Shown: positions 1 through 19,334, counted from the stretch's first letter. The stretch: 64,000 nt of DNA from an uncultured virus (IMG/VR IMGVR_UViG_3300031722_000022) (IMGVR_UViG_3300031722_000022); one strand, 5' to 3'. Numbers and translations are program-made. Notes: a model not told the origin generated them from the sequence alone.

Positions 1-201
1 GATTTCGACATTGAAACATTTGAAGTAGGTGGAGAGGACATTCTTGAGCAGTTGTCTATCATGCAAGTGCTTCGTGCCAATGGGAAATACGAAGACTATC
101 TCGATACAATCCTTGACATCGTCCTTGAGAAGGCCTATACTCAACACAGAGATGATTTCGAGGAACACTGTGGTAATGGCTACTACTCGAAATGGCATTG
201 A
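1..201 (+). CDS. 3' end of an acidic hypothetical phage protein (truncated by window edge)
   Basis: Frame 1 open from base 1 (DFDIETFEVGGEDIL...YYSKWH) to TGA at 199-201. Confidence 0.6.
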   Translation, partial: DFDIETFEVGGEDILEQLSIMQVLRANGKYEDYLDTILDIVLEKAYTQHRDDFEEHCGNGYYSKWH

Positions 202-249
202 AATAAATATTCAATTTATATTCTGATTATTTCACGGAGCGTACACAGA

Positions 250-426
250 ATGACTAAGAAGAAAGCTGCTACTAATAGGCCTGCCAAAGATGACGTAAGC
301 TACGTTGGCATTCCTTCTACAGGGTGTACAAGTAGCAAGCAGAATAATTGGTGGCGCTCTCATGAGAATGCCTTGCGGCGAGCGGCGTCCTATACAGACT
401 ACTCGCTTCCGTTCAAGATTAAATAA
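250..426 (+). CDS. hypothetical protein (58 aa)
   Basis: ATG at 250 after GGAG, open to TAA at 424-426; not in ORF track. Confidence 0.5.
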   Translation: MTKKKAATNRPAKDDVSYVGIPSTGCTSSKQNNWWRSHENALRRAASYTDYSLPFKIK

Positions 427-461
427 TATCTACGTAACACATACGATAAAGGAGAAGAATT

Positions 462-692
462 ATGAGTAAGTTTATTGAGTTGACTACCGGAAGAGATGAG
501 AAATTTCTAATTAATGTCGAGAGCATTGAGCAGATATGCAAACTTGATAAGGATTGGGCCTCTGGTTATGCTGTACACAGAGAATTCTTTAATGATATTA
601 CAAGTGTTGTGTATACTACACCACACATCGACTTGGATAATACTCAGTATGTTGTCGAAACATATGACCAAATCAAGACAATGTTGATGTAA
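462..692 (+). CDS. hypothetical protein
   Basis: AAGGAGA RBS; 76 aa ORF (FLINVESIEQI...VVETYDQI). Confidence 0.7.
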   Translation: MSKFIELTTGRDEKFLINVESIEQICKLDKDWASGYAVHREFFNDITSVVYTTPHIDLDNTQYVVETYDQIKTMLM

Positions 693-714
693 ATAATTTG
701 ACAGAAATAATTAT

Positions 715-743
715 AGCCACACTACAAATGTAGTGTGGCTTTC
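715..743 (+). terminator. intrinsic terminator
   Basis: AGCCACACTAC-AAAT-GTAGTGTGGCT followed by a short T/C run. Confidence 0.7.
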
Positions 744-895
744 TCCTATACCGGAAACTGGGAATATTATTTTGGTAAATCCTAGGAATTTCCTGCCGAA
801 ATTAAAAATTGGAAGTCCATTTTTCTTCCCAAATAGTGAGGGGCTATATTGAGAATTTTGCCACTGCTATAAAACTCTCTTTTGAAAAATGGGTC

Positions 896-1058
896 TGTGG
901 ATAACTTTTGTGGACAAATTGTGGATAACTTGATCGAAATAGTCAAAAACTGTCCACAGCCTGTGGATAAGTCGTATTCTGTCAACAGCTTCCCGCATTA
1001 TGAAATAATTAGTAAATTATCCACAGCAAGGCGTTGAAGTAGCAATTATTTATTCACA
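896..1058. promoter_or_regulatory. cluster of DnaA boxes
   Basis: Perfect TTATCCACA (either strand) at 896, 920, 962, 1017; near matches at 909 (TGTGGACAA), 950 (CTGTCCACA), 1050 (TTATTCACA). Confidence 0.85.
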
Positions 1059-1069
1059 ATTCCATATTC

Positions 1070-1085
1070 TGGCATATTTATTGCT
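1070..1085 (+). promoter_or_regulatory. sigma54 (RpoN) -24/-12 box
   Basis: TGGCAT-ATTTA-TTGCT. Confidence 0.6.
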
Positions 1086-1238
1086 CTGCAATGCTTAATA
1101 ATACACAGCTAGAATGCTATCCGCCGTCGGTCCTCCTGATCCGGCCTAAGCCGCGAAGGAACATGCCCATTGTACCATTGAAATTGTTGAATGCAATAGC
1201 CTGAGCTAAATTTATATGTGCCTGTTGAATGTCTATTC

Positions 1239-1254
1239 TGGCACAGTCTTTGCT
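1239..1254 (+). promoter_or_regulatory. sigma54 (RpoN) -24/-12 box
   Basis: TGGCAC-AGTCT-TTGCT matches TGGCAC-N5-TTGCW. Confidence 0.7.
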
Positions 1255-1306
1255 ACGCGTATGCGCGTCTATTGAATATAGAACGAAGGAAGAGCGAAGC
1301 TGTATT

Positions 1307-1361
1307 CTGTTACAAACTGTTACAATAAAGTGTTTGCCAATTGTCTAATTACCTTTATACT
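1307..1361 (+). promoter_or_regulatory. early sigma70-like promoter with upstream tandem TGTTACA repeat
   Basis: CTGTTACA x2 (10-bp period), then TTGCCA-16-TATACT. Confidence 0.55.
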
Positions 1362-1395
1362 TACGTTACACCTTAACTTTACCAGTGAGAACGAC

Positions 1396-1578
1396 ATGAA
1401 AAGCCTTTACGAACAGCTTGATTCCCTCGACGTACAATTGGTCGGCCTTCTTGTTGGAATTGATGCAGTAGGCCCAACATTCAGGAATAATTTGCGTGAT
1501 ATCCCTGCTATTGTTGGCGGGTATACGCTTTGTCAAGTTTCCAAAGCGTATCTTGAGCATATGCTTGCAAAGCAATAA
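1396..1578 (+). CDS. early hypothetical protein
   Basis: ATG at 1396 downstream of promoter, in frame with ORF 1330..1578. Confidence 0.55.
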   Translation: MKSLYEQLDSLDVQLVGLLVGIDAVGPTFRNNLRDIPAIVGGYTLCQVSKAYLEHMLAKQ

Positions 1579-1593
1579 TTGCTAGTGTAGAAT
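1565..1593 (+). promoter_or_regulatory. sigma70-like promoter
   Basis: TTGCAA-17-TAGAAT. Confidence 0.55.
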
Positions 1594-1781
1594 TCAATTC
1601 ATCAGCTAACGTTAAACATTCAACTAAGGGGCAACATCATGAAGCCAAAGACAGTAACGTTTTCCATCTCGTCAATTCGCTGGGCAATTCGCCACCATGT
1701 TGCAATCATCGTTTTCTGCTAGGAGAGAATCAGCGGATGCTGATTCCTTTCTCGACTAACATCTCGAAAGGTACTACTGCC

Positions 1782-1937
1782 ATGACAATCAACTATGACG
1801 AACAAACGGAGCTTGAAAGCATGAATGTTGAGACGTTGCTACATGAGCTTTCATTACTTGAGGATGACTGCGCAGAACGTGATACAATCGGCATTCTCGA
1901 TTTATCCTATCTTGGTGTATCACTGGACGACATGTAA
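1782..1937 (+). CDS. small acidic early protein
   Basis: MTINYDEQTELES..., D/E rich. Confidence 0.55.
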   Translation: MTINYDEQTELESMNVETLLHELSLLEDDCAERDTIGILDLSYLGVSLDDM

Positions 1938-2045
1938 ATGTGGAATCAAAAGAAAATTGTTGACACTTTAATTGTATGGATGATAGTATTCGTCCTGTTG
2001 GTCGTTCCGCAAATTATTCAACGTTCGTTCTAACTTACTGGAGTA

Positions 2046-2489
2046 TTGAAAATGAAATTCTCATCAATCAAGGGAGTTATCGAATTCTGTAACGACCTGT
2101 GCAGTTCACCAGATTGGCGGGAGGTCGTCGGATACATCGAATCGAACGATGATGATTTTGAAGTGGACAATGTCCGTTTCATTAAAGATGATGCAATCGA
2201 TAAGATTCAACAAGAAGAAATGGAAAACGACCTTTACATTCTTGGTTGTTTCAATGCTTGGTTTATCGCTGATTGTATCGGAATTGACACTGACGTTATC
2301 GCAGCAATGCAAAAGGCTGAAGCTTTCGAAGCCATTGGCAAGCGGATTATTTCAATGGGCAAGATCGAAGAAATGCAAGCGGCTTATGCTTCGTCAGATG
2401 GTTATGGGCACCATTTCAATAGCTACGATGGTATCGACGAAGAAATTGATATTGAAGGTGTTACATATCACGTTTTCGATAATCGTTAG
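2046..2489 (+). CDS. highly acidic early protein (possible DNA mimic)
   Basis: GGAG RBS; strongly D/E-rich 147 aa. Confidence 0.75.
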   Translation: MKMKFSSIKGVIEFCNDLCSSPDWREVVGYIESNDDDFEVDNVRFIKDDAIDKIQQEEMENDLYILGCFNAWFIADCIGIDTDVIAAMQKAEAFEAIGKRIISMGKIEEMQAAYASSDGYGHHFNSYDGIDEEIDIEGVTYHVFDNR

Positions 2490-2543
2490 ATAAATCTAAC
2501 GATTACATCGCTAACATTCAACAATCAACTAGGACTAAATATC

Positions 2544-2870
2544 ATGGCAAAGCTTACATTTGACGAAGCAATGGACAAAATCAATGACGGTATGCCCGCA
2601 TCTTGGAACGGCGTACAGGTGAAAGCGCTACGCCGGAAAGTATGGGTTGCAGAATGGCATATCCCCGGGTGCATGAGTGAATACCAAAGTTATTGCCTTA
2701 CGAAAGAAGAGGCAATCGAAACTTGCTGTATGTATGCTGAAGGCGAAGAGGGTATCCCGCGTGGCATGAAAACAGCATTGAGGAAGTACGGGCGATTCGA
2801 TAGTGAGTCAGTTTGTTTTGGCGATTGCATCAATACAATCGAGCGCTTGACGCTCAGTGACATTCTCTAA
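2544..2870 (+). CDS. early hypothetical protein
   Basis: AGGA RBS, 108 aa. Confidence 0.7.
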   Translation: MAKLTFDEAMDKINDGMPASWNGVQVKALRRKVWVAEWHIPGCMSEYQSYCLTKEEAIETCCMYAEGEEGIPRGMKTALRKYGRFDSESVCFGDCINTIERLTLSDIL

Positions 2871-2888
2871 CTAATTGGAGCATTCAAA

Positions 2889-3380
2889 ATGGAAATGATT
2901 AAATACCTTGCAAGCAATAACAAGCGGATTCCACTCATGGGTGATGACCTATCTGCTAACAAGATTGCACAATTGCCAGCAGTCAAGGGGCAAATTGGCA
3001 AAACAGGTATCCTTGAGCTTTTGCGTGGCGAGAAGAAACAAGTTAAGGGGTTCTCAATTGTTGAGGATAGAGCGCCCGACAGGGCTAACAAGATCGGCGT
3101 CGAGTACATTGGCACAGGCAAGATACGTCAGCGCAAGCCAATGGCAATCTACGTCAAGCCTTGCAAGGATAAAGGGCTTACAGGCCGCGAAGGGGGCGAT
3201 TTTAAGCGCTTCCTACTGGCAGTGTATAAGGGGGCTAACAAAAACCCTGCTGGCGTCGAATATGGAGCTTTGGCGGGTGAATTAGAAGGCTGGAGCCGCA
3301 ATATAGTAGCTGTCTACAGTGCGAGAGCTAAGGCACTAGGGTATGTCACAACAAGCCGCGAAAGCGGGAAGCTAAAGTAG
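2889..3380 (+). CDS. basic early protein, putative DNA-binding
   Basis: GGAG RBS; K/R rich with HTH-like segment (GKTGILELLRGEKKQVKGF). Confidence 0.6.
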   Translation: MEMIKYLASNNKRIPLMGDDLSANKIAQLPAVKGQIGKTGILELLRGEKKQVKGFSIVEDRAPDRANKIGVEYIGTGKIRQRKPMAIYVKPCKDKGLTGREGGDFKRFLLAVYKGANKNPAGVEYGALAGELEGWSRNIVAVYSARAKALGYVTTSRESGKLK

Positions 3381-3382
3381 CT

Positions 3383-3437
3383 TGTTACATACTGTTACAA
3401 TAAAGGGCTTGCACTCAATAGTTAAAGTATCTAGAAT
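3383..3437 (+). promoter_or_regulatory. early sigma70-like promoter with upstream tandem TGTTACA repeat
   Basis: TGTTACA at 3383 and 3393, then TTGCAC-17-TAGAAT. Confidence 0.6.
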
Positions 3438-3471
3438 GACTACATCAACTAACGCACAGGAAGCAAACATC

Positions 3472-3669
3472 ATGAAAACTTTTGATAACATCGAACAAAT
3501 AAGGCAAGCTGTTGATCGGGGCGATGAGGTCTACTGGCGTAATGACAGCTACCGGGTTATCAATGGATCAAGCGGCAAGGCTATCGTCTGGCGAGAGGAT
3601 AACCAGTATTGCGGTGGACATATCGATGACGATCAGCCAAAAGACTTCTATACAAAAGAGGAAAACTAA
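3472..3669 (+). CDS. early hypothetical protein
   Basis: AGGA RBS; MKTFDNIEQIRQAVDRGDEVYW. Confidence 0.65.
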   Translation: MKTFDNIEQIRQAVDRGDEVYWRNDSYRVINGSSGKAIVWREDNQYCGGHIDDDQPKDFYTKEEN

Positions 3670-3670
3670 A

Positions 3671-3820
3671 ATGCAACAATCCAAGAATGTAGAGAAACAA
3701 CAGCGTACACGCTTTAGCGAAGCTAACGAAATGATGCAACAGCGCGAAGCGCGTAAGCTTCAGCAAGAGCGAGAACGCCAAGAAGCAAGGGTTGCAAAGC
3801 AACAATTATTTGCTTGCTAA
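3671..3820 (+). CDS. small charged helical protein
   Basis: GAGG RBS; Q/R/E-rich 49 aa. Confidence 0.55.
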   Translation: MQQSKNVEKQQRTRFSEANEMMQQREARKLQQERERQEARVAKQQLFAC

Positions 3821-3875
3821 GGCGGAAGCTTTAGGCTAGAATCAGTTTTCTCACTCAACCAATGGACATGACATC

Positions 3876-4262
3876 ATGGAACTAAACATTACTGAATTTT
3901 TCAACAATTCTAACGCATTCGACTACTCGGCTTCAATTGCTGAAATGGGAGATAACGTAGGTATTGCTACGTGGCAGAATGCTTGCAATGCTGATTTTGT
4001 TCTATTGAGTAATGACGACGAATGCGAAAGTTTCCGCCAATATATCAAGGGCTTTGGTGCATGGAGTGACGAAGAAATTGCAGCATGGGACAATAATGAA
4101 TTGAATGCTTTGTGTATTCAGTTTGTCTCAGGTGAAATTAGGCAGTTCGAGGATGTAGCTGATAGTGACTGGGAAGAATACGAAAGGCTGTCTGAAGAAG
4201 GGCAATTAGGCGGATTGTGTAAAGGCGGTGACGATCAAGTTTATATTTATCTTAGTGAATAA
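3876..4262 (+). CDS. highly acidic early protein
   Basis: 128 aa, D/E and W rich. Confidence 0.75.
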   Translation: MELNITEFFNNSNAFDYSASIAEMGDNVGIATWQNACNADFVLLSNDDECESFRQYIKGFGAWSDEEIAAWDNNELNALCIQFVSGEIRQFEDVADSDWEEYERLSEEGQLGGLCKGGDDQVYIYLSE

Positions 4263-4275
4263 TTGAGGCTAGCAA

Positions 4276-4620
4276 ATGAAAATCAAAACTTCTGAATTGT
4301 CTGGTAATGCTTTAGATTATGCTGTCGCATTGTGCGAAGATGCGAGAGTAAATAAGGCGAGCTACCATACTGACTGGCTTATTAATGCTGATCGTAATTT
4401 TATGGCCTATGCGCCCTCTTCTGATTGGTCACAAGGCGGCCCGATTATTGATCGCGAGAAAATTAATATAAAATACGATAATTATATGTGGGGAGGTGAT
4501 CATCCCAGCGCTGTTTTTTATGAATACGCCAAAACTCCACTAATAGCAGCTATGTGTTGTTATGTAGCATCGAAGATTGGGGATTGTGTAGACATACCAG
4601 ACTCGCTTATTAACAATTAA
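4276..4620 (+). CDS. NinX/DUF2591-like phage protein
   Basis: KTSELSGNALDYAVA...YAPSSDWSQGGPII...TPLIAAM motifs recalled for this family. Confidence 0.7.
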   Translation: MKIKTSELSGNALDYAVALCEDARVNKASYHTDWLINADRNFMAYAPSSDWSQGGPIIDREKINIKYDNYMWGGDHPSAVFYEYAKTPLIAAMCCYVASKIGDCVDIPDSLINN

Positions 4621-4635
4621 TTGGAGCATTGAATA

Positions 4636-4827
4636 ATGAAAATCGAAATTAAGACCGATCCTTTGCATAAAAGCGTAGGTCACATTGTTGCACAAGTAGT
4701 AAATAACTCTTTTGCTTTCACAATGGAACGCTGGGTTAATCCTGAAGATGTAATCGAAACGATTCCCGCTGATCGAATGGCAAGGGAAGTATTTATGTTT
4801 TTCGAGCGGCAAGCAGAAAATAACTAA
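4636..4827 (+). CDS. hypothetical protein
   Basis: GGAG RBS, 63 aa. Confidence 0.55.
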   Translation: MKIEIKTDPLHKSVGHIVAQVVNNSFAFTMERWVNPEDVIETIPADRMAREVFMFFERQAENN

Positions 4828-4848
4828 TCAATCACTGGACATAATGTC

Positions 4849-5121
4849 ATGAACAAAATTACAGCATACGATGGTAATACACGCTTTGAACGTATATCAA
4901 AAGTCAAGGCGAAACAGTTGTTTAACGCTGGAAAGCCAATTGTGTTTTGTCCTGTTAAGCTTTATCCTTTTGGCGGGTTCCGCCCTTCGTGTATGATCCA
5001 AGGAGATGATGATCCTCATCAAGAGTTTGCAGACTACGTGCTACAATTTCAATGGTACAATTGCAATTGTTACGAAACAGGGTATTACACGGCGTTTTAT
5101 GTTAATAGCGAATTGATTTAA
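4849..5121 (+). CDS. hypothetical protein
   Basis: 90 aa ending YNCNCYETGYYTAFYV. Confidence 0.65.
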   Translation: MNKITAYDGNTRFERISKVKAKQLFNAGKPIVFCPVKLYPFGGFRPSCMIQGDDDPHQEFADYVLQFQWYNCNCYETGYYTAFYVNSELI

Positions 5122-5136
5122 TTGGAGCATAAAATA

Positions 5137-5333
5137 ATGAATAAGCATTCATTGCCAGGCGCGACGATGTCGCTATAGTAACCTATCATCGTAACCCTAC
5201 AAAGTATGAAATAAAATTTGGAGAAGGTGCTATTCATTATCGTGACTTTGACTCAGAAGAATGCTGTCATGATAATACAAGGATTCTTAAATCATGGTTT
5301 ATTGCTGATGATGGCTTACGTTATTATCGTTAG
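5137..5333 (+). pseudogene. frameshifted small phage gene
   Basis: GGAG RBS and ATG at 5137, but the protein-like body (AFIARRDDVAIVTYHRNPTKYEIKFGEGAIHYRDF...DDGLRYYR) is in the -1 frame; one extra base near 5143 would restore it. Confidence 0.6.
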
Positions 5334-5360
5334 ATAATGATCGGTAATAACATGATGCTA

Positions 5361-5387
5361 AAAGCCCTCGAAAGAGGGCTTTATTTT
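5361..5387 (+). terminator. intrinsic terminator ending early operon
   Basis: AAAGCCCTC-GAAA-GAGGGCTTT-ATTTT. Confidence 0.85.
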
Positions 5388-5399
5388 GCCTATAACAAT

Positions 5400-6450
5400 G
5401 ACAATAACGCACATAAACGCGCTATAACGCATTTGTTTATGCTTGGCTATACACTGCCATATGCAGCATGACAATAAGCCCTTACAGCGCCATAGCACAA
5501 GCCTGTAGGGCTATTCTACATGCTGCGTTAGCAGCCATTCCAGTTACTATTAAATGTTAGGCTATTCTAGGCTTATGTATAGAATTGTACATAAGGGCAG
5601 ATTCTATCGTGTAGTGTTATACATATAGCCCCTATGGGGCCAGCCTAACAAAGTGGCCTTCAGCCACATGGCGAGCATAGCCCATAGGGCCATTCATACA
5701 AGCGCTTCGCGCCAGGACCCCAGGCGCTTCAGCTTCGCCTAGTGCTATGAGACGAGACTATTAAATACCTGATTACTAACCCACCTACGGGGTTAAAAGG
5801 CTATCGCCTTGTTTGTGCATAAGGCGCTATGCGCTAGTAGGCAGGCACCTATGGTGCTATATGTACCAGCGCTTACAGCGCCATTAGACTGGCCCCTATG
5901 GGGCTATATAGCCATATGTGTAGATCATTATATATATGCTAATGAGTGTAGGACATGCCCCGTTAGGGGTTATATGTGGGCATGTAATGCAGTGTTATGA
6001 CTGGCTGCTATGCAGCTATTAACACGCGCCTATGGCGCTATATGTAATGACTGATAACAGTGTTATACGACGATGCGTGATACATCTATAGCAGGTTAAT
6101 AAGCGATAACTTAGTTGGTATCTTGATGCAAAGCATCTATTGGTTAAACCCCGTTACATTACACATACCCTACTACTATACTACACTATATTAACTATTA
6201 TTACATAACATATTCATTAATCATAGATTAATATTAAGCCTTAGCATTACAGATAATATTAAACACAATAACAGTTAATGTTATACACACGGCCCCATGG
6301 GGGCTAGTTCTATCCTATGCGAAGCATAGAGTATATCTATCATATGCTTATAGTTACATTTAACATAATGCTAGTTATACGTAGTTCAATGGTTACGAAG
6401 TAACAGACGATTGATAGCGCCTATGGCGCAGGGGCATGGTCGCCATGCGA
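5400..6450. repeat. array A of GC-stem, 3-nt-loop mini-hairpins
   Basis: GCCCCTATGGGGC, GCACCTATGGTGC, GCGCCTATGGCGC, GCTGCTATGCAGC, GCGCTTACAGCGC, GCGCTTCGCGC, CTATGCGAAGCATAG in a gene-free stretch. Confidence 0.85.
6358..6385 (-). promoter_or_regulatory. dif-like XerC/XerD site
   Basis: Minus strand ACTACGTATAA-CTAGCA-TTATGTTAAAT; 11-6-11 layout, XerD arm identical to E. coli dif. Confidence 0.75.
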
Positions 6451-6560
6451 CAAGGTATGTCTAACATTAAACAATATTAGTCTATTGATATTTTGGCTTT
6501 CATAAGGGATTGCTTATATAGGGTAGGGCGTGGATAAGCCACAACCCAGATAGATAACAA

Positions 6561-6584
6561 AATAGCCCTCAAAAGAGGGCTATT
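6561..6584 (-). terminator. intrinsic terminator (possibly bidirectional)
   Basis: AATAGCCCTC-AAAA-GAGGGCTATT. Confidence 0.7.
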
Positions 6585-6603
6585 GATATTGTTACACATG
6601 AAA

Positions 6604-8067
6604 TTACTTAAGTAATGTTATACTGTTACCCTCCAAAAATTTTTCAATTAAAATAGCAATCTCCGGAGGAGATGTTCCAACAAATGTTTCAGAACTTCCG
6701 TCAAAGATTTCGCTTGGTTGTTTATATTGCTGCCTTAGCAGCGTGAGTATTTCGTGTTCTGCGAACACAGCATCTTTGCCAATCATGTTCCAACTCTTAT
6801 AACACTTGAATAGAAACATTGCCCTTGTGCTCTTATGTATCTGTCTAATACGCCCCTCCGGGGTTTGATGAGTAATCCCAACTTTTACATACCCATTATC
6901 TGCAAGAAGAATATACAAGTTAGTTGGCCTACTTAGAGATAGTCCGTACTTAGCACAGTAAGGACAACCAACACCTTTGCCGTAGTTCCCATTGATATGA
7001 CCGGCAGCAGCTTGCTTGTAGGTATTCCCACATTCCTTGTGGGTAATCGTTACCTTCTCTCCAATAGACAAGTAGTCAGAGTATGAGTAGGCATCACCAT
7101 GCACAGCGAAAGCCCGCTGCTTGAACACATCAAGTGTTACTCTCTGTTCTGGGACACGAAGCACAAAGGGGCTGTTTGTTTTCTTCTTTAAATCCGTTAT
7201 GTTGTACGTCTTAATCTCACCAGTAGTAGTGTCTAAAAGTATATACCTATAATCCTCAGTAAAACCAAGGACTTCAACACCTTGTAGTATCTCCTTTTTC
7301 TCTTCTAGTAGGGCCAATCTCCAATCAACCAATTCACATGTTGGACATTTTCTTCCTTCAGTTAGTGACCTAATACTGCCTTCAAAGCTCCCGTGTTGTT
7401 CGCAGGTTGCAGCGACACATTGGTCTATTTCCCTTGTTCTTACTGAGTCTCTATCTATCTTGTATTGAGTCTTAGAGGATATCTCTCCATAGAAAGCATC
7501 TACCTCACTTGTTCTTTTACAGCTACAATGGCCTCCTCCGTTCATATGTAAAGCAGCATTGACAGAATAATTATTACCACAGTAGTTACAATGTATAAGA
7601 ATGTCCTGGTGATTATAAGGCTTCTCCTTGACATTTGAATAGTCATACCTTCCACTGTGTTTCTTGGTTGCGGTTTCTTTCCACCTCTCAAGTGTCCTTA
7701 CGTTGTAGAAATGTGGTGTTACCAACCCTCTTTCGATTGCATTCATTTGAGCAGTAACAAACTCATCGGGGTAGTCAATAAACTGTACTGTCACTTTCTT
7801 ATTGCCTTCGTATTTTGTGATGACTACCTTCCCAAATCTATTGGTATCATATACATCTCCTACTCGAACCTTTACTACAAGATTGTTATCGTCGGGATGA
7901 CAAGGAGGCCACAGTTTAAGAGTATTTGTTTCTCTATGGATTTCAACATCATCTTCAAATCTAATGACCACATCTTTACATCCATTATATTCTGTGATCT
8001 TACACTTCCTTCCCGTCTTAGATACCAATTCCATTCCCAACCAATAATCTCTAGCACTCTTTCCCAT
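6604..8067 (-). CDS. free-standing homing-endonuclease-like protein (Zn-finger repeats plus C-terminal GIY-YIG-like domain)
   Basis: HxxxYxYS and CxxC repeats; LYIL...VKVGIT...RIRQI...FDGSSETF. Confidence 0.75.
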   Translation of the reverse strand: MGKSARDYWLGMELVSKTGRKCKITEYNGCKDVVIRFEDDVEIHRETNTLKLWPPCHPDDNNLVVKVRVGDVYDTNRFGKVVITKYEGNKKVTVQFIDYPDEFVTAQMNAIERGLVTPHFYNVRTLERWKETATKKHSGRYDYSNVKEKPYNHQDILIHCNYCGNNYSVNAALHMNGGGHCSCKRTSEVDAFYGEISSKTQYKIDRDSVRTREIDQCVAATCEQHGSFEGSIRSLTEGRKCPTCELVDWRLALLEEKKEILQGVEVLGFTEDYRYILLDTTTGEIKTYNITDLKKKTNSPFVLRVPEQRVTLDVFKQRAFAVHGDAYSYSDYLSIGEKVTITHKECGNTYKQAAAGHINGNYGKGVGCPYCAKYGLSLSRPTNLYILLADNGYVKVGITHQTPEGRIRQIHKSTRAMFLFKCYKSWNMIGKDAVFAEHEILTLLRQQYKQPSEIFDGSSETFVGTSPPEIAILIEKFLEGNSITLLK

Positions 8068-8100
8068 TTATATTAAACCTCTTTTTATTAGTAACGTTTA

Positions 8101-8129
8101 ATTATACCATACAAAGCTGCTAAAGTCAA
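8101..8129 (-). promoter_or_regulatory. sigma70 promoter for endonuclease gene
   Basis: TTGACT-17-TATAAT on minus strand. Confidence 0.75.
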
Positions 8130-8159
8130 CAAGAGATTGTAAAGTTACTTGATATTCTT

Positions 8160-8570
8160 ACCCTACGGGTATATCTAAGGCCGCTTAGTGGCCCATCCCA
8201 AAAAAAAATTATTTTTTAATAAATTATGAATACGCCACAACATAAGTAATAGTCCTGTAAGGGCCAGTAATATCTTCCCTAGCGCATACGTATATTGAAA
8301 TGCCTATAGCCGCATAGCGGCCTGTTGTATAGCCCCTATGGGGTCAATTTAATAGCGCATAGCGCCTTACACACAAACATGTCTTACGACAAGTAAAGTC
8401 AAGAGCGAAGCGGGGCTGTGCTGAGTTTTATATTTAGTAGTTCTCCGTAGCCGAAGGCTGGCTAGGAACAGAGGCGGCTTACATGGCGCGAAGCGCTCAT
8501 TAGGCTGGCTGCTATGCAGCTATAGTCGCAACGTGGCGAAGGCCACCTCTACTGGCGCTTACAGCGCTAT
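8160..8570. repeat. array B of mini-hairpins
   Basis: ACCCTACGGGT, GCCGCATAGCGGC, GCGCATAGCGC, AGCCGAAGGCT, GCGCGAAGCGC, GCTGCTATGCAGC, GCGCTTACAGCGC. Confidence 0.85.
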
Positions 8571-8614
8571 ACAAATGTCCGAAGAAGGTATAGACAAAAT
8601 GGACACACAAAGAA

Positions 8615-8638
8615 ATAGCCCCTCTCACGAGGGGCTAT
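8615..8638 (-). terminator. intrinsic terminator
   Basis: ATAGCCCCTC-TCAC-GAGGGGCTAT, T-rich tail on minus strand. Confidence 0.75.
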
Positions 8639-8643
8639 GCTTG

Positions 8644-9570
8644 CTAGACTTCTTCTACAACATCCTGCAATTGAATTGTTTCCAGGAATGCCTTCTCCTT
8701 GTCTGTAACAATCCCTTTCAAGATATGTGCAATTACATCTACTGTCCAACCATTACCAATTGACTTATACCTCTCACGAGTGTGCACAGACATTGAATAA
8801 TTATCCGGTAATGTCTGAAGTCTTTCATACTCAACACAAGACAACTTACGATATTGCCCATTTTTCTCAATGTAATTACAATTCCAACTAGCATCACTTC
8901 TTGCCGTAAGACACGCTGCCTTAGTAGGGTTGATATTAGCATACCTCTTTGCGACACATGCTTGTCCCTTGTCACTTAGTAGCCAACGAAGCCTCCCCTC
9001 CGTTAGGATGCTTTCTGCTCCTGGCCAACTGACGAGAATATCTACAAGATTCGGAGAAGTTACTGGATATTTATTAGAGACTTCAATGTTTGTCCAATAC
9101 AACCTGGCCCTGCTCTGTGCAGAGAACAATGATGAACAAATCTTAATTGGCTCTACACCAACAAGCCTGGATATTTCATCTAGTGAGGATTTCTTACCAA
9201 CAACATTCTCAAGTAGAAAGTATTTAGGATTTACTTCGTTCTTAATGCGTAGCCAGTGATAGAACAATCCACTCTTACCCTCTAGCCCTTCTTTGTTGCC
9301 TAGATTACTAATCGACTGACAAGAACTCCCTCCTAGTACAAGATCAATCTTTCCAACATTGTAATTCCCGCTCTCGGTGTATAATACACCGTCTTTATAT
9401 GAAACTTTAGTCACATCCCCAATGTGGATAATGTCTTTCCAATTATCTTTGCTTACAGCAATTGCATGTTTGTCAATCTCTGAAGCATAATAATTATCTA
9501 CTTTGATGCCAGCCCTATCAAGGGCCACCCTCCCACAACTAATGCCATCAAACAACGATAGTACATTCAA
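8644..9570 (-). CDS. DNA (cytosine-5) methyltransferase
   Basis: Motif I LSLFDGI, motif IV GGSSCQ, motif VI LLENV, QSRARLYW, ERLQTLPD, IGNGW. Confidence 0.92.
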   Translation of the reverse strand: MNVLSLFDGISCGRVALDRAGIKVDNYYASEIDKHAIAVSKDNWKDIIHIGDVTKVSYKDGVLYTESGNYNVGKIDLVLGGSSCQSISNLGNKEGLEGKSGLFYHWLRIKNEVNPKYFLLENVVGKKSSLDEISRLVGVEPIKICSSLFSAQSRARLYWTNIEVSNKYPVTSPNLVDILVSWPGAESILTEGRLRWLLSDKGQACVAKRYANINPTKAACLTARSDASWNCNYIEKNGQYRKLSCVEYERLQTLPDNYSMSVHTRERYKSIGNGWTVDVIAHILKGIVTDKEKAFLETIQLQDVVEEV

Positions 9571-9690
9571 TATGTTTCTCCTTATTTGTAGTATCCATAC
9601 AAAATCCTCCGGGCTAATTCAGAAGCATTGTGTGCCTCCCCAAATTCTGCATACATCAGATTCTTAAGTTCACTACCACCGTAGTCTGCT

Positions 9691-9900
9691 TTAACCTTCG
9701 TAACCAATTTTATTAGAGAGATATTCATACATGTATTCTAGCCCACTAATTTCTGATTGCTGTTGCTCAATATAATCAGCAGCCTCTTCAAGCAAATCAG
9801 CAATCTTATCTGGCTTTCCTTCTTGTACACTCTTACGTGTAGAAATGCTTCTACGTATATTTGCACGGATGCGTAAGCGTTCAACTAGAGATTGTTCCAT
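9691..9900 (-). CDS. hypothetical phage protein
   Basis: AAGGAGA RBS; LVERLRIRANIRR...IADLLEEAA. Confidence 0.7.
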   Translation of the reverse strand: MEQSLVERLRIRANIRRSISTRKSVQEGKPDKIADLLEEAADYIEQQQSEISGLEYMYEYLSNKIGYEG

Positions 9901-9977
9901 CTTATTTCTCCTTAGTAAATTAGACAGAACACATAGTCTCATACATTTCATCGTTTGTCAAGCAATATGTAAAAGAA

Positions 9978-10005
9978 ATAGCCCTCTTCGTGAGAAGAGG
10001 GCTAT
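9978..10005 (-). terminator. intrinsic terminator
   Basis: ATAGCCCTCTTC-GTGA-GAAGAGGGCTAT. Confidence 0.75.
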
Positions 10006-10121
10006 AACATTAATTGTCATCAGCTATTGCGTCTGCAATCCAAATTTTAACTTTTGTCAATTGCCATATTCCAAATGTAGGAATACGTAGAATGTAGCAA
10101 CCAAGTATATAACGAAGTGTG

Positions 10122-10814
10122 CTAGTCTTCAGATACAGAATTATTAGTCTTGCTGCAAGCCATGCCACAAGAACAGCTAGAAGTTTCTTTAGCAGCCTCA
10201 TTATTATCTCCTTGTTGCATCTTGTCTACTTTAGCTTGTCGATATTCTACCATATTCTTAAAGCGATCACAAAATTCTTTTGAGTCCATCCAATGCTCAT
10301 ATCCTTGGTCAATGATCCGGGTAATCTCATCTTCTGTCAGAAATCCCTCATAATAATAATGAAGCATACTATCTGCTTGCTTATGCATGAAATCCACTTG
10401 TTGCTTTGTCTCCGACATCTTCCCTACAGCACCAAAGGAGGCGGAGTGGCAAAGTAGAACACAATGAGGGGAGATTTCAAAACTATCACAATTAAGAAGT
10501 ATAAATGTTGCAAAAGAAGCAATGCACCCACTTGCTTGAATATGCACCTCGGCCTCACAATTATTCATTGCTAACATAATTGCATCACCAACATAAATAG
10601 ACCCACCTAAACAGTTGAGATGAATTGTAATATGATCCTCTTCTTTAGCTGTCCCTAGAATAAAGAGCAAATCTTCTACATCAGAAAGGTTTTCAAGTGT
10701 GTCCCAAACATCGCAAATGTAGTGATTGCTCACTTCTTGTGTTGCACGAACACTAAATGGAACAGACATTTCTGATAGCTCTGCCCCCATTCGTGGTTGT
10801 TTGTATTTATTCAA
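10122..10814 (-). CDS. ClpP-like serine protease
   Basis: ITIHLNCLGGS, GCIASFATFI (catalytic Ser), LLCH; TTG start after AAGGAGA. Confidence 0.8.
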   Translation of the reverse strand: MNKYKQPRMGAELSEMSVPFSVRATQEVSNHYICDVWDTLENLSDVEDLLFILGTAKEEDHITIHLNCLGGSIYVGDAIMLAMNNCEAEVHIQASGCIASFATFILLNCDSFEISPHCVLLCHSASFGAVGKMSETKQQVDFMHKQADSMLHYYYEGFLTEDEITRIIDQGYEHWMDSKEFCDRFKNMVEYRQAKVDKMQQGDNNEAAKETSSCSCGMACSKTNNSVSED

Positions 10815-10824
10815 TATGTTCTCC

Positions 10825-11046
10825 TTATTCATGCTTGCAACCAGGACATTTACTCTTGACGAACTCATGTAGAATTTGTGAGGTGGAAATCTTCTGCTTA
10901 TCTGTGTCAACGATAACACTTGGATTAAATTCAGCACCTTTACAAAATCCAAGTTCTGTCGCAAGAGTAAGAATCTCCTCATAATCACCTTCCATATCAT
11001 ACGATTCCCAAGTTTCTCCTACTGTGCGTTCAATTTTTAGTTTCAT
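10825..11046 (-). CDS. hypothetical protein
   Basis: AAGGAGA RBS, 73 aa. Confidence 0.6.
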   Translation of the reverse strand: MKLKIERTVGETWESYDMEGDYEEILTLATELGFCKGAEFNPSVIVDTDKQKISTSQILHEFVKSKCPGCKHE

Positions 11047-11055
11047 TGGTTCTCC

Positions 11056-11781
11056 TTATTTTCCATGTTGCTCTGTGTATCCAGTACCGAGAAGGTTTAA
11101 TCGGCGAATATGAATATCTCGCCACTCTTCAGCAATGAAAGTAGCATACTCCAAACCCCACTTCTTTATAGACCATGATTTAGTAATAGGTTTTCCATCT
11201 AAACCATATACAGACGCATTCATCGTCTCCGTTCCAAAAGCGTTCGTACTGCACCAAACGCCGGTTATACCAGAGACGTTGTTCGCTTGTTTCTTCCTGT
11301 TTCTAACTTGCTGTGGAGGAGTTGCCTACCTTAAATTTCCTATTTCATAATTTTTTGTGGTATCAATTCTATCCACACTCCACTTAATTTCATTGTCAGG
11401 AGGGTTCCCAAGATGACTACACCACAACTCTGGATTTGATCTAAGTTCGTCAGACATCTTTATACCAATACCGCCGTACCTTTTATATTCCGGGTGATTT
11501 TCATTGTAACACCTTTGTTTGGCATCTGACCATGCTTGATACGCCTTGGTTCTACTCATATTATGTTTCGCAGATTGTCTACCTAGTTCTGATGCTCGTT
11601 CTTTTACTAGGCACCCACAACTTCTAACACCTTTAGATGACAACTCCACGGAAGCCTTTACACAAGTATTTCCACAGGAGCATATGCAATTCCACAGAAC
11701 TTGCCCCCGAACGTTTCTGCCATTTTCAGACACTACAGTTAATCTGCCAAATACCTTTCCAATCAACTTTAATTTACTCAT
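11056..11781 (-). pseudogene. HNH/AP2 homing endonuclease interrupted by in-frame TAG
   Basis: FGRLTV...CICSCG...SVDRIDTTKNYEIGNLR*ATPPQQVRNRKK...SGITGV...GYTEQHGK; TAG at 11326-11328 where Trp is expected. Confidence 0.8.
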
Positions 11782-12614
11782 TGCTTATAGTAGTACAACT
11801 TAGTAAGTGCCTTAACCATAGGACTACGTTGTACATCATCGAAAGTGAAGTGCGTGATTGCTACGTTATTGATAAACTCGTAGAGGTCATTTTCATCTAA
11901 GTAGTCTGGAGGAGTGTTCTTACGCACATTATCCAACATATTGAGGGTAGCCACCAATCCAGAAGTCCCACGCATGTCGTGCTGCGTTTGATCCCCTGTG
12001 AAGATCATCTGGCAATTCTCCCCAATACGGGTAAGCATCATCTCAAACTCATCTTCTGTAAAGTTCTGAGACTCTTCCGTTATGACTACGCAATCTTGAA
12101 AACTCATGCCACGCATGTGCTCAGCAGCGCACAACTCGATAATCTTCTTACTCAGACAGTAACCAGCAAACCCCTTACCAAGAAAACTCTCGAAATGATG
12201 AATGGTTTGTAGGAACCAAGGAAGCAACTTAGAATGCAAATCGCCCGGAATTAACCCGTTTGTCTTGCCACAAGACACAGCGGGGCGTACAAGATACACC
12301 TTATCAATCTTCTTTGATTTAATCAGATTACTGGCATGGTATGCTGCCAACATTGATTTTCCTGTTCCCGCAACTCCAACTAGATAATTAATTTGCTTCC
12401 CGCTTTTTAGTGCAGTGAGTGCTTTTCTCTGATTCTCCCCTCTCGGGTCAATATTAAGACCGTTAGAAGCCTTTGGAATAATATCCTCGATAAATTTCTC
12501 CTTAATAACAGGGGGCAGTTCCTGCTTAACTTTTACTGCCCGAGTCTTCTTACGGCTTCGCCGTGGCTTGCTACTCCCCAACATTTCACTATCCAAATCA
12601 TTCTCATAAGCCAT
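11778..12614 (-). CDS. phoH: PhoH family ATPase
   Basis: GVAGTGKS Walker A, LVRPAV, MRGMSF, EESQN, LTRIGE, GDQTQ, VQRS. Confidence 0.93.
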   Translation of the reverse strand: MAYENDLDSEMLGSSKPRRSRKKTRAVKVKQELPPVIKEKFIEDIIPKASNGLNIDPRGENQRKALTALKSGKQINYLVGVAGTGKSMLAAYHASNLIKSKKIDKVYLVRPAVSCGKTNGLIPGDLHSKLLPWFLQTIHHFESFLGKGFAGYCLSKKIIELCAAEHMRGMSFQDCVVITEESQNFTEDEFEMMLTRIGENCQMIFTGDQTQHDMRGTSGLVATLNMLDNVRKNTPPDYLDENDLYEFINNVAITHFTFDDVQRSPMVKALTKLYYYKQ

Positions 12615-13269: not shown

Positions 13270-13350
13270 AGCGGGTTTGCAGAATCGAACTGCGGCTTGC
13301 CAGCACCCCTTCGGATTAGGTATCCGATGCTCTCCATAAGCTAAACCCGC
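13270..13350 (-). tRNA. atypical tRNA: CCT at anticodon position, Gly-like acceptor, long variable region
   Basis: GCGGGTT/AACCCGC acceptor + U73, D arm GCTT/GAGC, anticodon arm TCGGA-TACCTAA-TCCGA, T arm GCAG-TTCGATT-CTGC; no encoded CCA. Confidence 0.7.
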
Positions 13351-13356
13351 ATTGTT

Positions 13357-13431
13357 TGGTGGTCCGCCACGGTTACGATCCGTGCCCTACGACTTATGAG
13401 GTCGTTGTTCTCACCAGTGAACTATCAGACC
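13357..13431 (-). tRNA. tRNA with CAT anticodon (Met or Ile2)
   Basis: GGTCTGA...ACGAC-CTCATAA-GTCGT...CACGG-ATCGTAA-CCGTG-GCGGACC-ACCA. Confidence 0.85.
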
Positions 13432-14815: not shown

Positions 14816-14893
14816 ATAAACGCTCTATAATCGATTTGTTTAGTCCTCCCTATACACACGTAGCCACAATGTTGTAATAAGCGCTTACAGCGC
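14816..14893. repeat. 78-bp dispersed element, second copy at 5413-5490
   Basis: Ungapped alignment, 54/78 identities by hand count. Confidence 0.75.
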
Positions 14894-19206: not shown

Positions 19207-19334
19207 CTTCTGCCCCCTTATGTGAGCCATCCATCTCTTTTTGTACAAGTTCAACAATGAAAGTGTGAATACTTCTATCTCCGCAGTTCTCTTTAAGCCA
19301 CAAGAACATCGGAGACTTAAATTTTACTTGCATG

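What the first reader, a model, noticed from the sequence alone, without database searches (positions are those of the whole stretch)
780..6560. Early block carries several kinds of host protein-binding site (DnaA, RpoN, OmpR-like, XerCD)
Seen: one ~5.8 kb block has a DnaA-box cluster at its left edge, two sigma54 boxes, OmpR-like repeats on two promoters, a mini-hairpin array and a dif-like site near its right edge, around small acidic genes. Known: the T5 terminal repeat has an injection-stop region with repeats, palindromes and DnaA boxes. Inference: this is the first-entering DNA or terminal repeat, and it recruits or titrates abundant host DNA-binding proteins, for example as an ejection ratchet, a decoy that shuts down host replication, or an oriC/dif mimic. 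I know of no description of this combined arrangement.
Basis: partly seen in the sequence, partly recalled or inferred. Interest (0 to 1): 0.8.

Follow-up and report, generated by a model that had tools for sequence, protein, structure and literature searches.

The report
Phage DnaA-box and sigma-54 control hub
A gene-free stretch of this uncultured peat phage holds tight clusters of perfect docking sites for two host proteins, the replication starter DnaA and the sigma-54 RNA polymerase; the pairing recurs in related phages, one of them cultured, and is most likely the phage's replication start or a host-sensing switch.

Summary
Partly confirmed. The window is a novel myovirus from peat metagenomes, distantly related to Pakpunavirus-like phages. 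The DnaA-box cluster (896-1058) and two sigma-54-type -24/-12 boxes (1070, 1239) are real and non-random. They form one conserved non-coding module. Limnohabitans phage DC31 and 16 IMG/VR contigs carry an invariant three-box DnaA core at the syntenic place where I could check (DC31, G002, G003, G006, G011, G019). DC31 and 12 of those 16 contigs also have sigma-54 boxes beside it, mostly facing away. The module is single-copy and can be inverted relative to its flanking genes. I read it as a DnaA-scaffolded, promoter-flanked control element, most likely a replication origin (0.4). Rivals are a DnaA-modulated promoter hub, a host-factor decoy and a T5-like injection stop.

The "OmpR-like" element is real: an exact 23-nt tandem-repeat box on two sigma-70-type promoters. 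Its binder is unknown. The mini-hairpin array is real but not block-specific (two more clusters elsewhere) and is absent from relatives. The dif-like site is one chance half-site.

A terminal position could not be tested; contigs run across the block.

The 5.8-kb block is therefore not one unit. Earlier notes of this scan report sigma-54 arrays and DnaA clusters separately in other phages.

The parts
715..740 (.). 11-bp-stem hairpin terminator that ends the upstream small-gene operon and marks the left boundary of the control hub
   Evidence: One search lists it on the minus strand; read. Relatives have an equivalent terminator at the same place.
896..1058 (.). DnaA-box cluster. Perfect boxes at 896, 920, 962 (minus orientation) and 1017 (plus). 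TTATTCACA at 1050. Near-boxes at 909 (1 mismatch) and 950 (2 mismatches).
   Evidence: Syntenic clusters in DC31 and in IMG/VR records G002, G003, G006, G011, G019.
1044..1103 (.). AT-richest 60-mer of the hub (75% AT, top 1% of the window). Overlaps the last DnaA box and the first sigma-54 box. Candidate unwinding element.
1070..1085 (+). Sigma-54-type -24/-12 box 1 (TGGCATATTTATTGCT), facing the small-gene operon
   Evidence: (D18).
1169..1187 (.). Left arm of a 19-nt perfect inverted repeat. The right arm is 5043-5061, inside the last gene of the block.
   Evidence: I5. About 7e-5 such pairs expected in 6.1 kb (my estimate).
1239..1254 (+). Sigma-54-type box 2 (TGGCACAGTCTTTGCT), a perfect consensus match. 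Homologous to the DC31 box; it is the only clearly alignable stretch of the two gaps.
1255..1268 (+). 14-nt alternating purine-pyrimidine tract directly after box 2. Equivalent tracts follow the box in DC31, G006, L235, L138 and L147.
1308..1361 (+). Tandem TGTTACA repeats (10-bp register) abutting a sigma-70-like promoter (TTGCCA-16-TATACT)
   Evidence: (D9).
1396..5121 (+). Operon of about 12 small, mostly acidic genes of unknown function. The only Pfam hit is NinX (4276-4620). Gene content differs between relatives.
3383..3437 (+). Second copy of the tandem-repeat box plus a sigma-70-like promoter (TTGCAC-17-TAGAAT), internal to the operon
5043..5061 (.). Right arm of the 19-nt perfect inverted repeat
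   Evidence: I5.
5361..5382 (+). Intrinsic terminator of the small-gene operon
5470..6450 (.). Mini-hairpin array in the spacer between the two convergent terminators. Stems of 4-6 bp starting GC, loops mostly TAT, often followed by TATAT. Stems co-vary between copies.
   Evidence: (D2-D4). Absent from 6 relatives.
6177..6236 (.). AT-richest 60-mer of the whole window (85% AT)
6358..6368 (-). 11-nt match to the XerD arm of dif. Judged to be chance.
6561..6584 (.). Bidirectional hairpin terminator at the end of the minus-strand gene block (HNH endonuclease gene 6604-8067)

Best explanation
The real and conserved object is the 650-nt gene-free hub at 740-1396, not the whole 5.8-kb block. An array of high-affinity DnaA boxes is flanked by one or more sigma-54-type promoters that mostly fire outward. 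I propose that host DnaA assembles on the boxes, and that a poised host sigma-54 RNA polymerase supplies regulated outward transcription. Together they would open the adjacent AT-rich DNA, or prime it by an R-loop, to start phage replication. That makes it an oriC-like, transcription-activated origin.

Shown: the sites, their clustering, their conservation, their single copy, and their independence of orientation.
Inferred: DnaA and sigma-54 binding, and the origin function.

The genes 1396-5121 are an exchangeable accessory operon with its own two sigma-70-type promoters. The hairpin spacer is a separate, lineage-specific feature.
For: 1. Clustering in the window: 4 perfect boxes within 130 nt.

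2. Conservation. DC31 has 5 perfect boxes at the syntenic place. G002, G003, G006, G011 and G019 have 3-5 boxes each, 3-4 kb beyond the ClpP-like gene. A three-box core occurs in 67 IMG/VR contigs. 16 of these share the central palindrome, and in an alignment of those 16 plus DC31 the boxes, the palindrome and (apart from an insertion in L218) their spacing are kept while the flanks do not align.

3. Coupling to sigma-54 boxes. In whole records, the boxes that lie at the DnaA gap number 7 of 8 (G002), 2 of 3 (G006), 1 of 3 (G011), 2 of 2 (G019) and 2 of 2 (DC31). 19 of the 67 core-bearing contigs have a strict box within 700 nt, where I estimate about 0.4 by chance. 14 of the 25 boxes that lie downstream of the core on its strand start 45-110 nt after the tandem box pair.

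4. The reverse test. 5 of 80 loci chosen only for tandem sigma-54 boxes have 2 or more perfect DnaA boxes. Three of the five have module layouts unlike this clade's.

5. Behaviour as an autonomous cis element. The core is inverted relative to its flanking genes in G002, G003 and G011, so there the boxes point antisense to the neighbouring operon. It lies at one locus in the 3 complete IMG/VR records that carry it (G006, G011, G019) and in DC31.

6. Origin-like company. AT-rich TTATATAAGC tandem repeats abut the boxes in DC31, G006 and G019. Lineage-specific direct repeats (iteron-like) fill the rest of the gap. In the window an AT-rich 60-mer adjoins the boxes.

7. The outward promoter is the conserved feature. 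L212 and L233 have TATAAT where the others have the sigma-54 box.
Against: - No experiment and no transcript or replication data exist.
- These phages encode their own polymerase and an initiator-like protein (window 18676-19257 and 59470-61575), so DnaA need not be required.
- No clear DnaA-trio run or 13-mer-type unwinding element was seen; there are only two TAG triplets after the box pair.
- The module is optional in the wider group. There are no boxes in KPP10 or PseuGes_254 and no cluster in the 98%-complete record G004.
- GC skew follows gene direction and shows no switch at the hub.
- No enhancer-binding activator is encoded: 0 of 29 records.
- In one unrelated contig (L133) the sigma-54 boxes point toward the DnaA boxes.
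- The window's own version lacks the central palindrome and has a different box order.
Confidence: 0.4

Rival explanations
1. Regulated promoter hub only. The sigma-54 (and nearby sigma-70) promoters drive the downstream accessory operon or a short leader RNA. DnaA bound to the boxes acts as a repressor or activator, tying expression to the host's replication and growth state. There is no role in replication.
For: - In the window, DC31, G006, G019, L138 and L147 the sigma-54 box faces the downstream genes and is followed by a conserved leader and then a sigma-70 promoter.
- The boxes sit at an activator-like distance of 45-110 nt.
- A terminator isolates the hub from the upstream operon.
- A phage sigma-54 promoter has a precedent in YuA (PMC10914365, passages seen).
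- DnaA as a transcription factor is established knowledge (recalled).
Against: - In G002, G003 and G011 the module is inverted, so the boxes (7 in tandem in G002) point antisense into the end of the upstream operon. A terminator separates the hub from the downstream gene.
- Seven promoters at 26-nt spacing make little sense as ordinary promoters.
- No activator gene was found.
Confidence: 0.25
2. Host-factor decoy. As the phage DNA multiplies, the clusters soak up DnaA and sigma-54 polymerase. This shuts down host initiation and sigma-54-dependent stress responses.
For: - The sites are perfect, high-affinity and packed too tightly for all to be used as promoters: G002 has 7 in about 230 nt.
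- Dense sigma-54 arrays on both strands recur in more than 122 viral contigs, with up to 12 per 2.4 kb.
- No activator is encoded.
- Earlier notes of this scan describe similar arrays; these are leads, not evidence.
Against: - The window and most clade members have only 1-2 sigma-54 boxes and 3-7 DnaA boxes, which is a small sink.
- The fixed geometry of boxes, palindrome and promoter is more than a sponge would need.
- The mainly outward orientation suggests that transcription matters.
Confidence: 0.15
3. T5-like injection stop. The block is first-step-transfer DNA next to a genome end. Membrane-bound DnaA holds the boxes until genes of the block are expressed.
For: - T5-like phages have about 8 DnaA boxes at the inner edge of their first-transferred 8% (10.1101/866236).
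- Here the boxes lie about 5 kb (about 6% of an estimated 87.7-kb genome) from an untranscribed spacer between convergent terminators. That topology is where the relative PseuGes_254 has its mapped terminal repeats.
- The promoters of the block lie on the spacer side of the boxes.
- A 19-nt inverted repeat brackets the block.
- Record G001 starts at 5883.
Against: - No terminus is shown. A contig runs straight through.
- Contig ends in relatives fall in tandem repeats where I looked at the sequence (G006, G004).
- Two-step injection is known only from T5-like siphoviruses, whereas this phage is myovirus-like (recalled).
- The T5 box pairing and large inverted repeats are absent.
- No protein of the block matched any annotated family other than NinX, so no A1- or A2-like function was seen.
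Confidence: 0.07

Closest known systems
Injection-stop (iss) region of T5-like phages (Davison, bioRxiv 10.1101/866236)
   Same: A conserved cluster of consensus DnaA boxes in a repeat-rich, untranslated region among early small genes of a virulent phage. Its author calls it oriC-like.
   Different: T5 boxes come in pairs 3 bp apart inside 131-bp inverted repeats within a 10-kb terminal repeat. Here there is a convergent 1+2 (or 2-3+2) arrangement around a 15-nt palindrome, no long inverted repeat, no shown terminal repeat, and sigma-54 boxes that T5 is not reported to have.
Bacterial oriC with flanking promoters (gidA, mioC), and iteron origins with DnaA boxes such as P1 oriR (recalled, not looked up)
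   Same: A DnaA-box array beside AT-rich repeats, direct repeats and outward transcription; single copy.
   Different: No dnaA or rep gene adjoins the module. No DnaA-trios or 13-mers were recognised. The promoters are of the sigma-54 class. The host is unknown.
Phage T4 oriF/oriG: promoter plus downstream unwinding element giving an R-loop primer
   Same: The promoter is an integral part of a phage origin, with a conserved sequence just downstream of the start.
   Different: T4 uses MotA-dependent sigma-70 promoters and no DnaA boxes. Here the sequence after the promoter is a GC-rich alternating tract and not AT-rich.
Enhancer-dependent sigma-54 promoters (glnAp2, pspA); the sigma-54-like promoter of Pseudomonas phage YuA (PMC10914365, passages)
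   Same: An exact -24 GG / -12 GC consensus with the correct spacing, and conservation confined to the positions that sigma-54 contacts.
   Different: No activator gene and no recognisable activator site. What lies 45-110 nt upstream is a DnaA-box array. Tandem copies occur at 26-nt spacing in some relatives.

Membership tests
T5-type injection-stop signal | Lies in a long direct terminal repeat at the boundary of first-step-transfer DNA | not testable with these tools
   Only assembled contigs of 4 runs could be laid. One spans 1-12000. No raw reads were available.
T5-type injection-stop signal | About 8 DnaA or variant boxes in pairs 3 bp apart, inside two 131-bp inverted repeats | tested here: not met
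   Box spacings are 13, 11, 30, 12, 55 and 33 nt. The only long-range inverted repeat is 19 nt. The T5 features come from section 3.3 of 10.1101/866236.
T5-type injection-stop signal | A1/A2-type pre-early genes in the transferred block | tested here: inconclusive
   Of the 14 block and flank proteins scanned, 3 matched PHROGs families, all of unknown function. Of 15 scanned against Pfam, only NinX matched. I made no direct comparison with A1 or A2.
DnaA-dependent (oriC-like) origin | Cluster of consensus DnaA boxes in both orientations | tested here: met
   conserved in relatives.
DnaA-dependent (oriC-like) origin | Adjacent AT-rich unwinding element or DnaA-trios | tested here: inconclusive
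   A 75%-AT 60-mer lies at 1044-1103. AT-rich TTATATAAGC repeats adjoin the boxes in DC31, G006 and G019. Only two TAG triplets follow the box pair.
DnaA-dependent (oriC-like) origin | Single copy per genome | tested here: met
   The clustered perfect boxes lie at one locus in DC31, G006, G011 and G019. The window has one further isolated box at 9423.
DnaA-dependent (oriC-like) origin | Supports initiation of replication | not testable with these tools
   Needs bench work. GC skew is uninformative.
Sigma-54 (RpoN) dependent promoter | -24 TGGCAC / -12 TTGCW with 5-nt spacer | tested here: met
   1239-1254 is perfect and 1070-1085 has one mismatch. The conserved positions across relatives are the consensus ones, and the spacers vary.
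Sigma-54 (RpoN) dependent promoter | A cognate AAA+ enhancer-binding activator and its upstream site | tested here: not met
   Sigma54_activat is found in 0 of 29 phage records, and there is no Pfam hit of that kind among the 47 window proteins scanned. A host activator cannot be excluded, because the host is unknown.
Sigma-54 (RpoN) dependent promoter | Transcript start about 12 nt downstream, dependent on rpoN | not testable with these tools
   All 24 runs found are DNA and are kept as contigs.
dif / XerCD recombination site | 28-nt site: XerC arm, 6-nt centre, XerD arm | tested here: not met
   0 matches at up to 3 mismatches. Only the XerD arm is present, at the chance rate. 0 of 6 relatives have it.
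OmpR/PhoB-type response-regulator site | Two direct hexamer repeats one helical turn apart, abutting the -35 | tested here: met
   GTTACA-N4-GTTACA lies at 1309 and 3384, directly upstream of the -35 hexamers. Among 6 relatives only G011 has one, inside its hub.
OmpR/PhoB-type response-regulator site | Bound by OmpR or another winged-helix regulator | not testable with these tools
   The resemblance to OmpR sites is recalled. The host is unknown.

The most novel reading that the evidence does not exclude
The DnaA array and the sigma-54 promoters work as one device. The DnaA oligomer is itself an AAA+ ATPase and sits at enhancer distance (45-110 nt). It gates or replaces the missing enhancer-binding activator of the poised sigma-54 polymerase. 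Phage replication or transcription would then fire only in hosts rich in DnaA-ATP. This direct coupling of the replication initiator to sigma-54 would have arisen repeatedly in unrelated phages.
Probability: 0.1. Interest if true: 0.9.

Novelty: new variant of a known kind. Interest (0 to 1): 0.62.

Why it matters
Origins and early control regions of most virulent phages are unmapped. Sigma-54 is almost unstudied in phage biology.

Two host-factor site types are locked here into one conserved geometry, in a whole clade that includes a cultured phage-host pair (Limnohabitans phage DC31 and strain DCL3). That turns a metagenomic curiosity into something testable at the bench.

The same pairing appears in contigs whose modules look unlike this clade's: 5 of 80 loci chosen for sigma-54 tandems have two or more perfect DnaA boxes, three of them (L105, L113, L133) of that kind. 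This hints at a general way for phages to read or exploit host replication and stress status.

If the module is an origin, it would be a portable, host-dependent replicon element.

Tried and rejected
- DNA searches of the 'phages' collection with 780-6560 (near) and 1-8000 (distant): no match.
- The window's own assembly is not held. The nearest record, G001, covers only window 5883 onward.
- The search for related loci with single proteins (2889-3380; the ClpP-like protein): no relatives. A two-sequence alignment then worked.
- Exact pattern of sigma-54 box plus following tract in viral contigs: 0 matches.
- Rfam on 1-9000: only a sub-threshold Qrr hit at 647-748 (25.9 bits against a gathering score of 50; E 0.24). 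It is probably driven by the terminator hairpin.
- Termini from reads: all 24 runs are kept as contigs, so read starts cannot be seen.
- In run X3 a contig at 5839-6890 has depth 14.3 against 6.4-8.4 beside it. This could be a collapsed terminal repeat or two co-assembled strains. I do not count it either way.
- Contig ends of 8 of 18 related records fall 0.7-2.3 kb past the end of the ClpP-like match. I first read this as termini. I printed five of those ends: G006 ends in a 63-nt-unit tandem array and the far end of G004 starts with a 25-nt-unit array, which look like assembly breaks; G015, G008 and G009 showed no obvious repeat.
- The 'direct terminal repeats' that IMG/VR lists for G006 and G019 are only 63- and 26-nt end overlaps.
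- A phage-encoded sigma-54 activator or sigma-54 DNA-binding domain: none in 29 and 18 records.
- A conserved 140-aa gene next to the module in 5 relatives (phrog_10415): no homologue in the window.
- A 256-aa gene (phrog_2554, DUF7227) near the relatives' second gap: function unknown, and not in the window.
- Hairpin arrays in relatives: none.
- The search of earlier findings by place: nothing on this genome.

Full report
**What the window is.** The 64-kb window encodes a myovirus-like phage: terminase, portal, major capsid, a 1709-aa tail protein, DNA polymerase A, RtcB, PhoH, a ClpP-like protease, two tRNAs and three HNH-type endonuclease genes. Its capsid protein is at most 50% identical to any named phage. 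The nearest are Limnohabitans phage DC31 and Pseudomonas phages of the PAK_P1/KPP10 kind. No DNA-level match exists in the phage collection. The same DNA is held by 24 peat-metagenome runs, and the longest contig in one run is 87,700 nt, my estimate of the genome size. The layout is as follows:
- small plus-strand genes run from before position 1 to 5121;
- a gene-free spacer lies at 5121-6600;
- minus-strand genes follow from 6604.

**Checking the five motif classes.**
- *DnaA boxes.* TTATCCACA occurs 5 times in the window, four of them at 896-1025 (0.78 expected; 0 of 100 shuffles reach 5). TTATTCACA lies at 1050, and two near-boxes at 909 and 950 can be read.
- *Sigma-54 boxes.* There is a perfect TGGCAC-N5-TTGCT at 1239 and a one-mismatch copy at 1070. 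The window-wide count is ordinary (6 against 3.17 expected). But both sit in the same 650-nt gap, on the gene strand, inside a 21-nt direct repeat (D18).
- *OmpR-like repeats.* A 23-nt element with two TGTTACA units one helical turn apart is exact at 1308 and 3383 (0.01 expected). Each copy abuts a sigma-70-like promoter. Which protein binds it cannot be told.
- *Mini-hairpins.* My script finds 17 GC-stem, 3-4-nt-loop hairpins between 5161 and 6584, two of them the terminators, against about one per kb elsewhere. The same kind also clusters at 8309-8567 (7) and 19730-20052 (6), both intergenic. The stems differ between copies while pairing is kept (GCCCC, GCGCC, GCACC, GCGCT, GCTGC, GCCGC). 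This points to a folded single strand, not a protein site on duplex DNA.
- *dif-like site.* Only the 11-nt XerD arm matches, at 6358-6368, and it does so at the chance rate. No full site exists.
- *Acidic genes.* 10 of the 15 listed reading frames have pI below 5.6.

**Relatives show which part is a conserved object.**
- DC31 has five perfect DnaA boxes within 120 nt, in a 930-nt gene-free gap inside its run of small genes.
- Gene order matches the window: PhoH, the ClpP-like gene, a gap, 2-3 kb of small genes, then the DnaA gap. The window has an HNH endonuclease and a methyltransferase inserted.
- A two-sequence alignment of the ClpP-like protein fetched 18 IMG/VR loci. Box clusters lie 3-4 kb beyond that gene in G002, G003, G006, G011 and G019. 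G004, which is 98% complete, has only one isolated box.
- KPP10 and PseuGes_254 have no boxes, and Curvibacter phage P26059A has two scattered ones.
- The genes between the hub and the ClpP-like gene are mostly different in each phage.
- The hairpins are absent from all six relatives examined, and so is the XerD arm.

**The sigma-54 boxes travel with the DnaA boxes.**
- The two gaps of the window and DC31 do not align, except for CTGGCACAG-NN-TTTGCT and a following TGCGCGT.
- In whole records, the boxes of form GGCA-N6-TTGC that lie at the DnaA gap number 7 of 8 in G002, 2 of 3 in G006, 1 of 3 in G011 and 2 of 2 in G019. In G004 the count is 0 of 4.
- DC31 has 2 of 2 at the gap and the window 2 of 4, counted with TGGCA-N6-TTGCW.
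- An unbiased test used the core TTATCCACA-N24-34-TGTGGATAA-N11-15-TGTGGATAA. It occurs in 67 viral contigs. 19 of them have a strict sigma-54 box within 700 nt, where I estimate about 0.4 by chance.
- 14 of the 25 boxes that lie downstream of the core on its strand start 45-110 nt after the tandem box pair. Five loci have an opposite-strand box inside the cluster.
- 16 of the 67 contigs share the central palindrome AGTCTTATATAAGAG, and 12 of those 16 have a sigma-54 box.
- I aligned those 16 modules plus DC31. The three boxes, the palindrome and (apart from an insertion in L218) their spacing are kept, while the flanks cannot be aligned. L212 and L233 carry TATAAT where the others carry the sigma-54 box.
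- The reverse test started from tandem sigma-54 boxes. 5 of 80 such loci have two or more perfect DnaA boxes. L138 and L147 repeat the window's layout: DnaA boxes, three tandem sigma-54 boxes, an alternating CG/TG tract, a sigma-70 promoter, then a gene. L105, L113 and L133 are arranged differently.

**Architecture.**
- In DC31, G006 and G019 the order is: terminator; 3-4 copies of an AAAAGCCG-type repeat (a different repeat in DC31); AT-rich TTATATAAGC tandem repeats; 2-3 boxes; the palindrome; two boxes 22 nt apart; about 90 nt; a sigma-54 box facing the downstream genes; then an alternating purine-pyrimidine tract.
- In G002, G003 and G011 the core is inverted relative to the flanking genes. 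The sigma-54 boxes then point antisense toward the end of the upstream operon: seven in tandem at about 26-nt spacing in G002, four in G003. A terminator separates the hub from the downstream gene.
- Within the clade the boxes almost always point away from the DnaA cluster. The exceptions are one box at a contig end in G003 and single opposite-strand boxes in L234 and L261.
- The conserved positions are exactly those of the sigma-54 consensus, and the 4-5-nt spacers vary freely. This fits sigma-54 better than a phage iteron-binding protein.
- No record encodes a sigma-54 activator (0 of 29) or a sigma-54 DNA-binding domain (0 of 18).

**Interpretation.** The hub behaves as an autonomous, single-copy cis element whose function does not depend on its orientation to neighbouring genes. 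It is built from host-factor sites, AT-rich repeats and lineage-specific direct repeats. My best reading (0.4) is a DnaA-assisted origin activated by transcription. Outward promoters are also found at oriC, and a promoter is part of the T4 oriF/oriG origins (both recalled). Three rivals remain:
- A pure DnaA-modulated promoter hub (0.25) fits the window, DC31 and L138/L147. It does not fit the inverted and arrayed versions well.
- A decoy for DnaA and sigma-54 (0.15) fits the packed arrays. It does not explain the fixed geometry.
- A T5-like injection stop (0.07) cannot be excluded, because the termini are unknown. But the defining T5 arrangement is absent.

**Terminal position.**
- One contig covers window 1-12000 without a break.
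- G001 starts at 5883, inside the hairpin repeats.
- Eight of 18 related contigs end 0.7-2.3 kb past the end of the ClpP-like match. I printed five of those ends: G006 ends in a tandem-repeat array and the far end of G004 starts with one, while G015, G008 and G009 show no obvious repeat. The end overlaps of G006 and G019 are only 63 and 26 nt. This looks more like assembly breaks than proof of termini.
- The relative PseuGes_254 has 628-nt terminal repeats mapped by PhageTerm (PMC11512268, passages). I confirmed that the record's first 628 nt recur at its end. The repeats sit between a long run of small genes heading for the right end and minus-strand genes that begin with an endonuclease.
- The window's spacer at 5390-6560 has that same topology. 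It lies between two convergent terminators and holds the AT-richest 60-mer of the window. A terminus there is plausible but not shown.

**Literature and earlier notes.**
- Four full-text searches found no paper on a combined DnaA and sigma-54 module, or on sigma-54 arrays, in phages.
- The DC31 genome paper has no occurrence of 'DnaA' or 'sigma' in its main text (PMC12195039, term search).
- The PseuGes_254 paper predicts an origin with DnaA boxes elsewhere in that genome, using Ori-Finder.
- Phage YuA is reported to use a sigma-54-like promoter (PMC10914365, passages).
- Earlier AI notes of this scan report sigma-54 arrays and DnaA-box clusters separately in other phages. I re-found the arrays independently. 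I treat the notes as leads only.

**Verdict.** The finding is partly right. Two of the five motif classes form a real, conserved and apparently undescribed module. One is a real promoter element with an unknown binder. One is a real but unrelated repeat family. One is chance. The whole-block reading as terminal DNA is unproven.

Noticed in passing
window 8309-8567 and 19730-20052 (also 14881-14893): Further clusters of the same GC-stem, 3-nt-loop mini-hairpins (often followed by TATAT) in two other gene-free spacers. The stems co-vary. Two copies are the GCGAAGC-type hairpin. The function is unknown and the hairpins are absent from relatives.
   Followed up: partly
window 1169-1187 and 5043-5061: A 19-nt perfect inverted repeat brackets the small-gene operon. 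One arm lies in the hub upstream of sigma-54 box 2, the other inside the last gene. It could allow inversion, or long-range pairing of a leader RNA with the 3' gene.
   Followed up: no
60 of 80 fetched loci have 3 or more boxes, with up to 12 per 2.4 kb. In complete genomes the boxes sit almost entirely in one locus (G030: 8 of 8 within 424 nt). None of the records searched encodes an activator.
   Followed up: partly
IMG/VR loci L200, L201, L206, L211, L214, L219, L237, L245, L249, L250, L252, L254, L260: 13 higher-GC viral contigs have the same 2+2 convergent DnaA-box frame around a different central palindrome, GCACCA-N3-TGGTGC. From memory this resembles an NtrC-type site. None has a sigma-54 box within 700 nt.
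   Followed up: no
window 6604-8067, 23791-25143, 26718-27833: Three paralogous HNH/homing-type endonuclease genes (phrog_681). One, together with a C-5 cytosine methyltransferase (8644-9570), is inserted between the spacer and the ClpP-like gene relative to DC31. Two lie just upstream of the large terminase gene.
   Followed up: no
window 6571-6574: In runs X1 and X3 the loop of the terminator hairpin reads TTTT where the window reads AAAA. This is a flipped hairpin loop: either strain variation or an assembly ambiguity of the palindrome.
   Followed up: no
L026 end with L067 end (G006); L074 start (G004): Long tandem arrays lie next to the small-gene block of relatives: a 63-nt unit carrying TTATATAAGC in G006 and a 25-nt unit in G004. 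The TTATATAAGC motif also flanks the DnaA boxes, so a phage protein may bind both places, in the manner of an origin plus a control locus.
   Followed up: partly
L067:7303-7725 (G006) and orthologues in DC31, G002, G011, G019: A conserved 140-aa protein of unknown function (phrog_10415) is encoded immediately upstream of the hub in 5 relatives, but not in the window.
   Followed up: partly
window 13657-14796, 13270-13431, 16148-16570: The phage carries RtcB RNA ligase, tRNA-Arg(CCT) and tRNA-Met, and a NADAR-domain protein. In enterobacteria the host rtcBA operon is sigma-54-dependent (recalled). Whether that links to the sigma-54 boxes is unknown.
   Followed up: no
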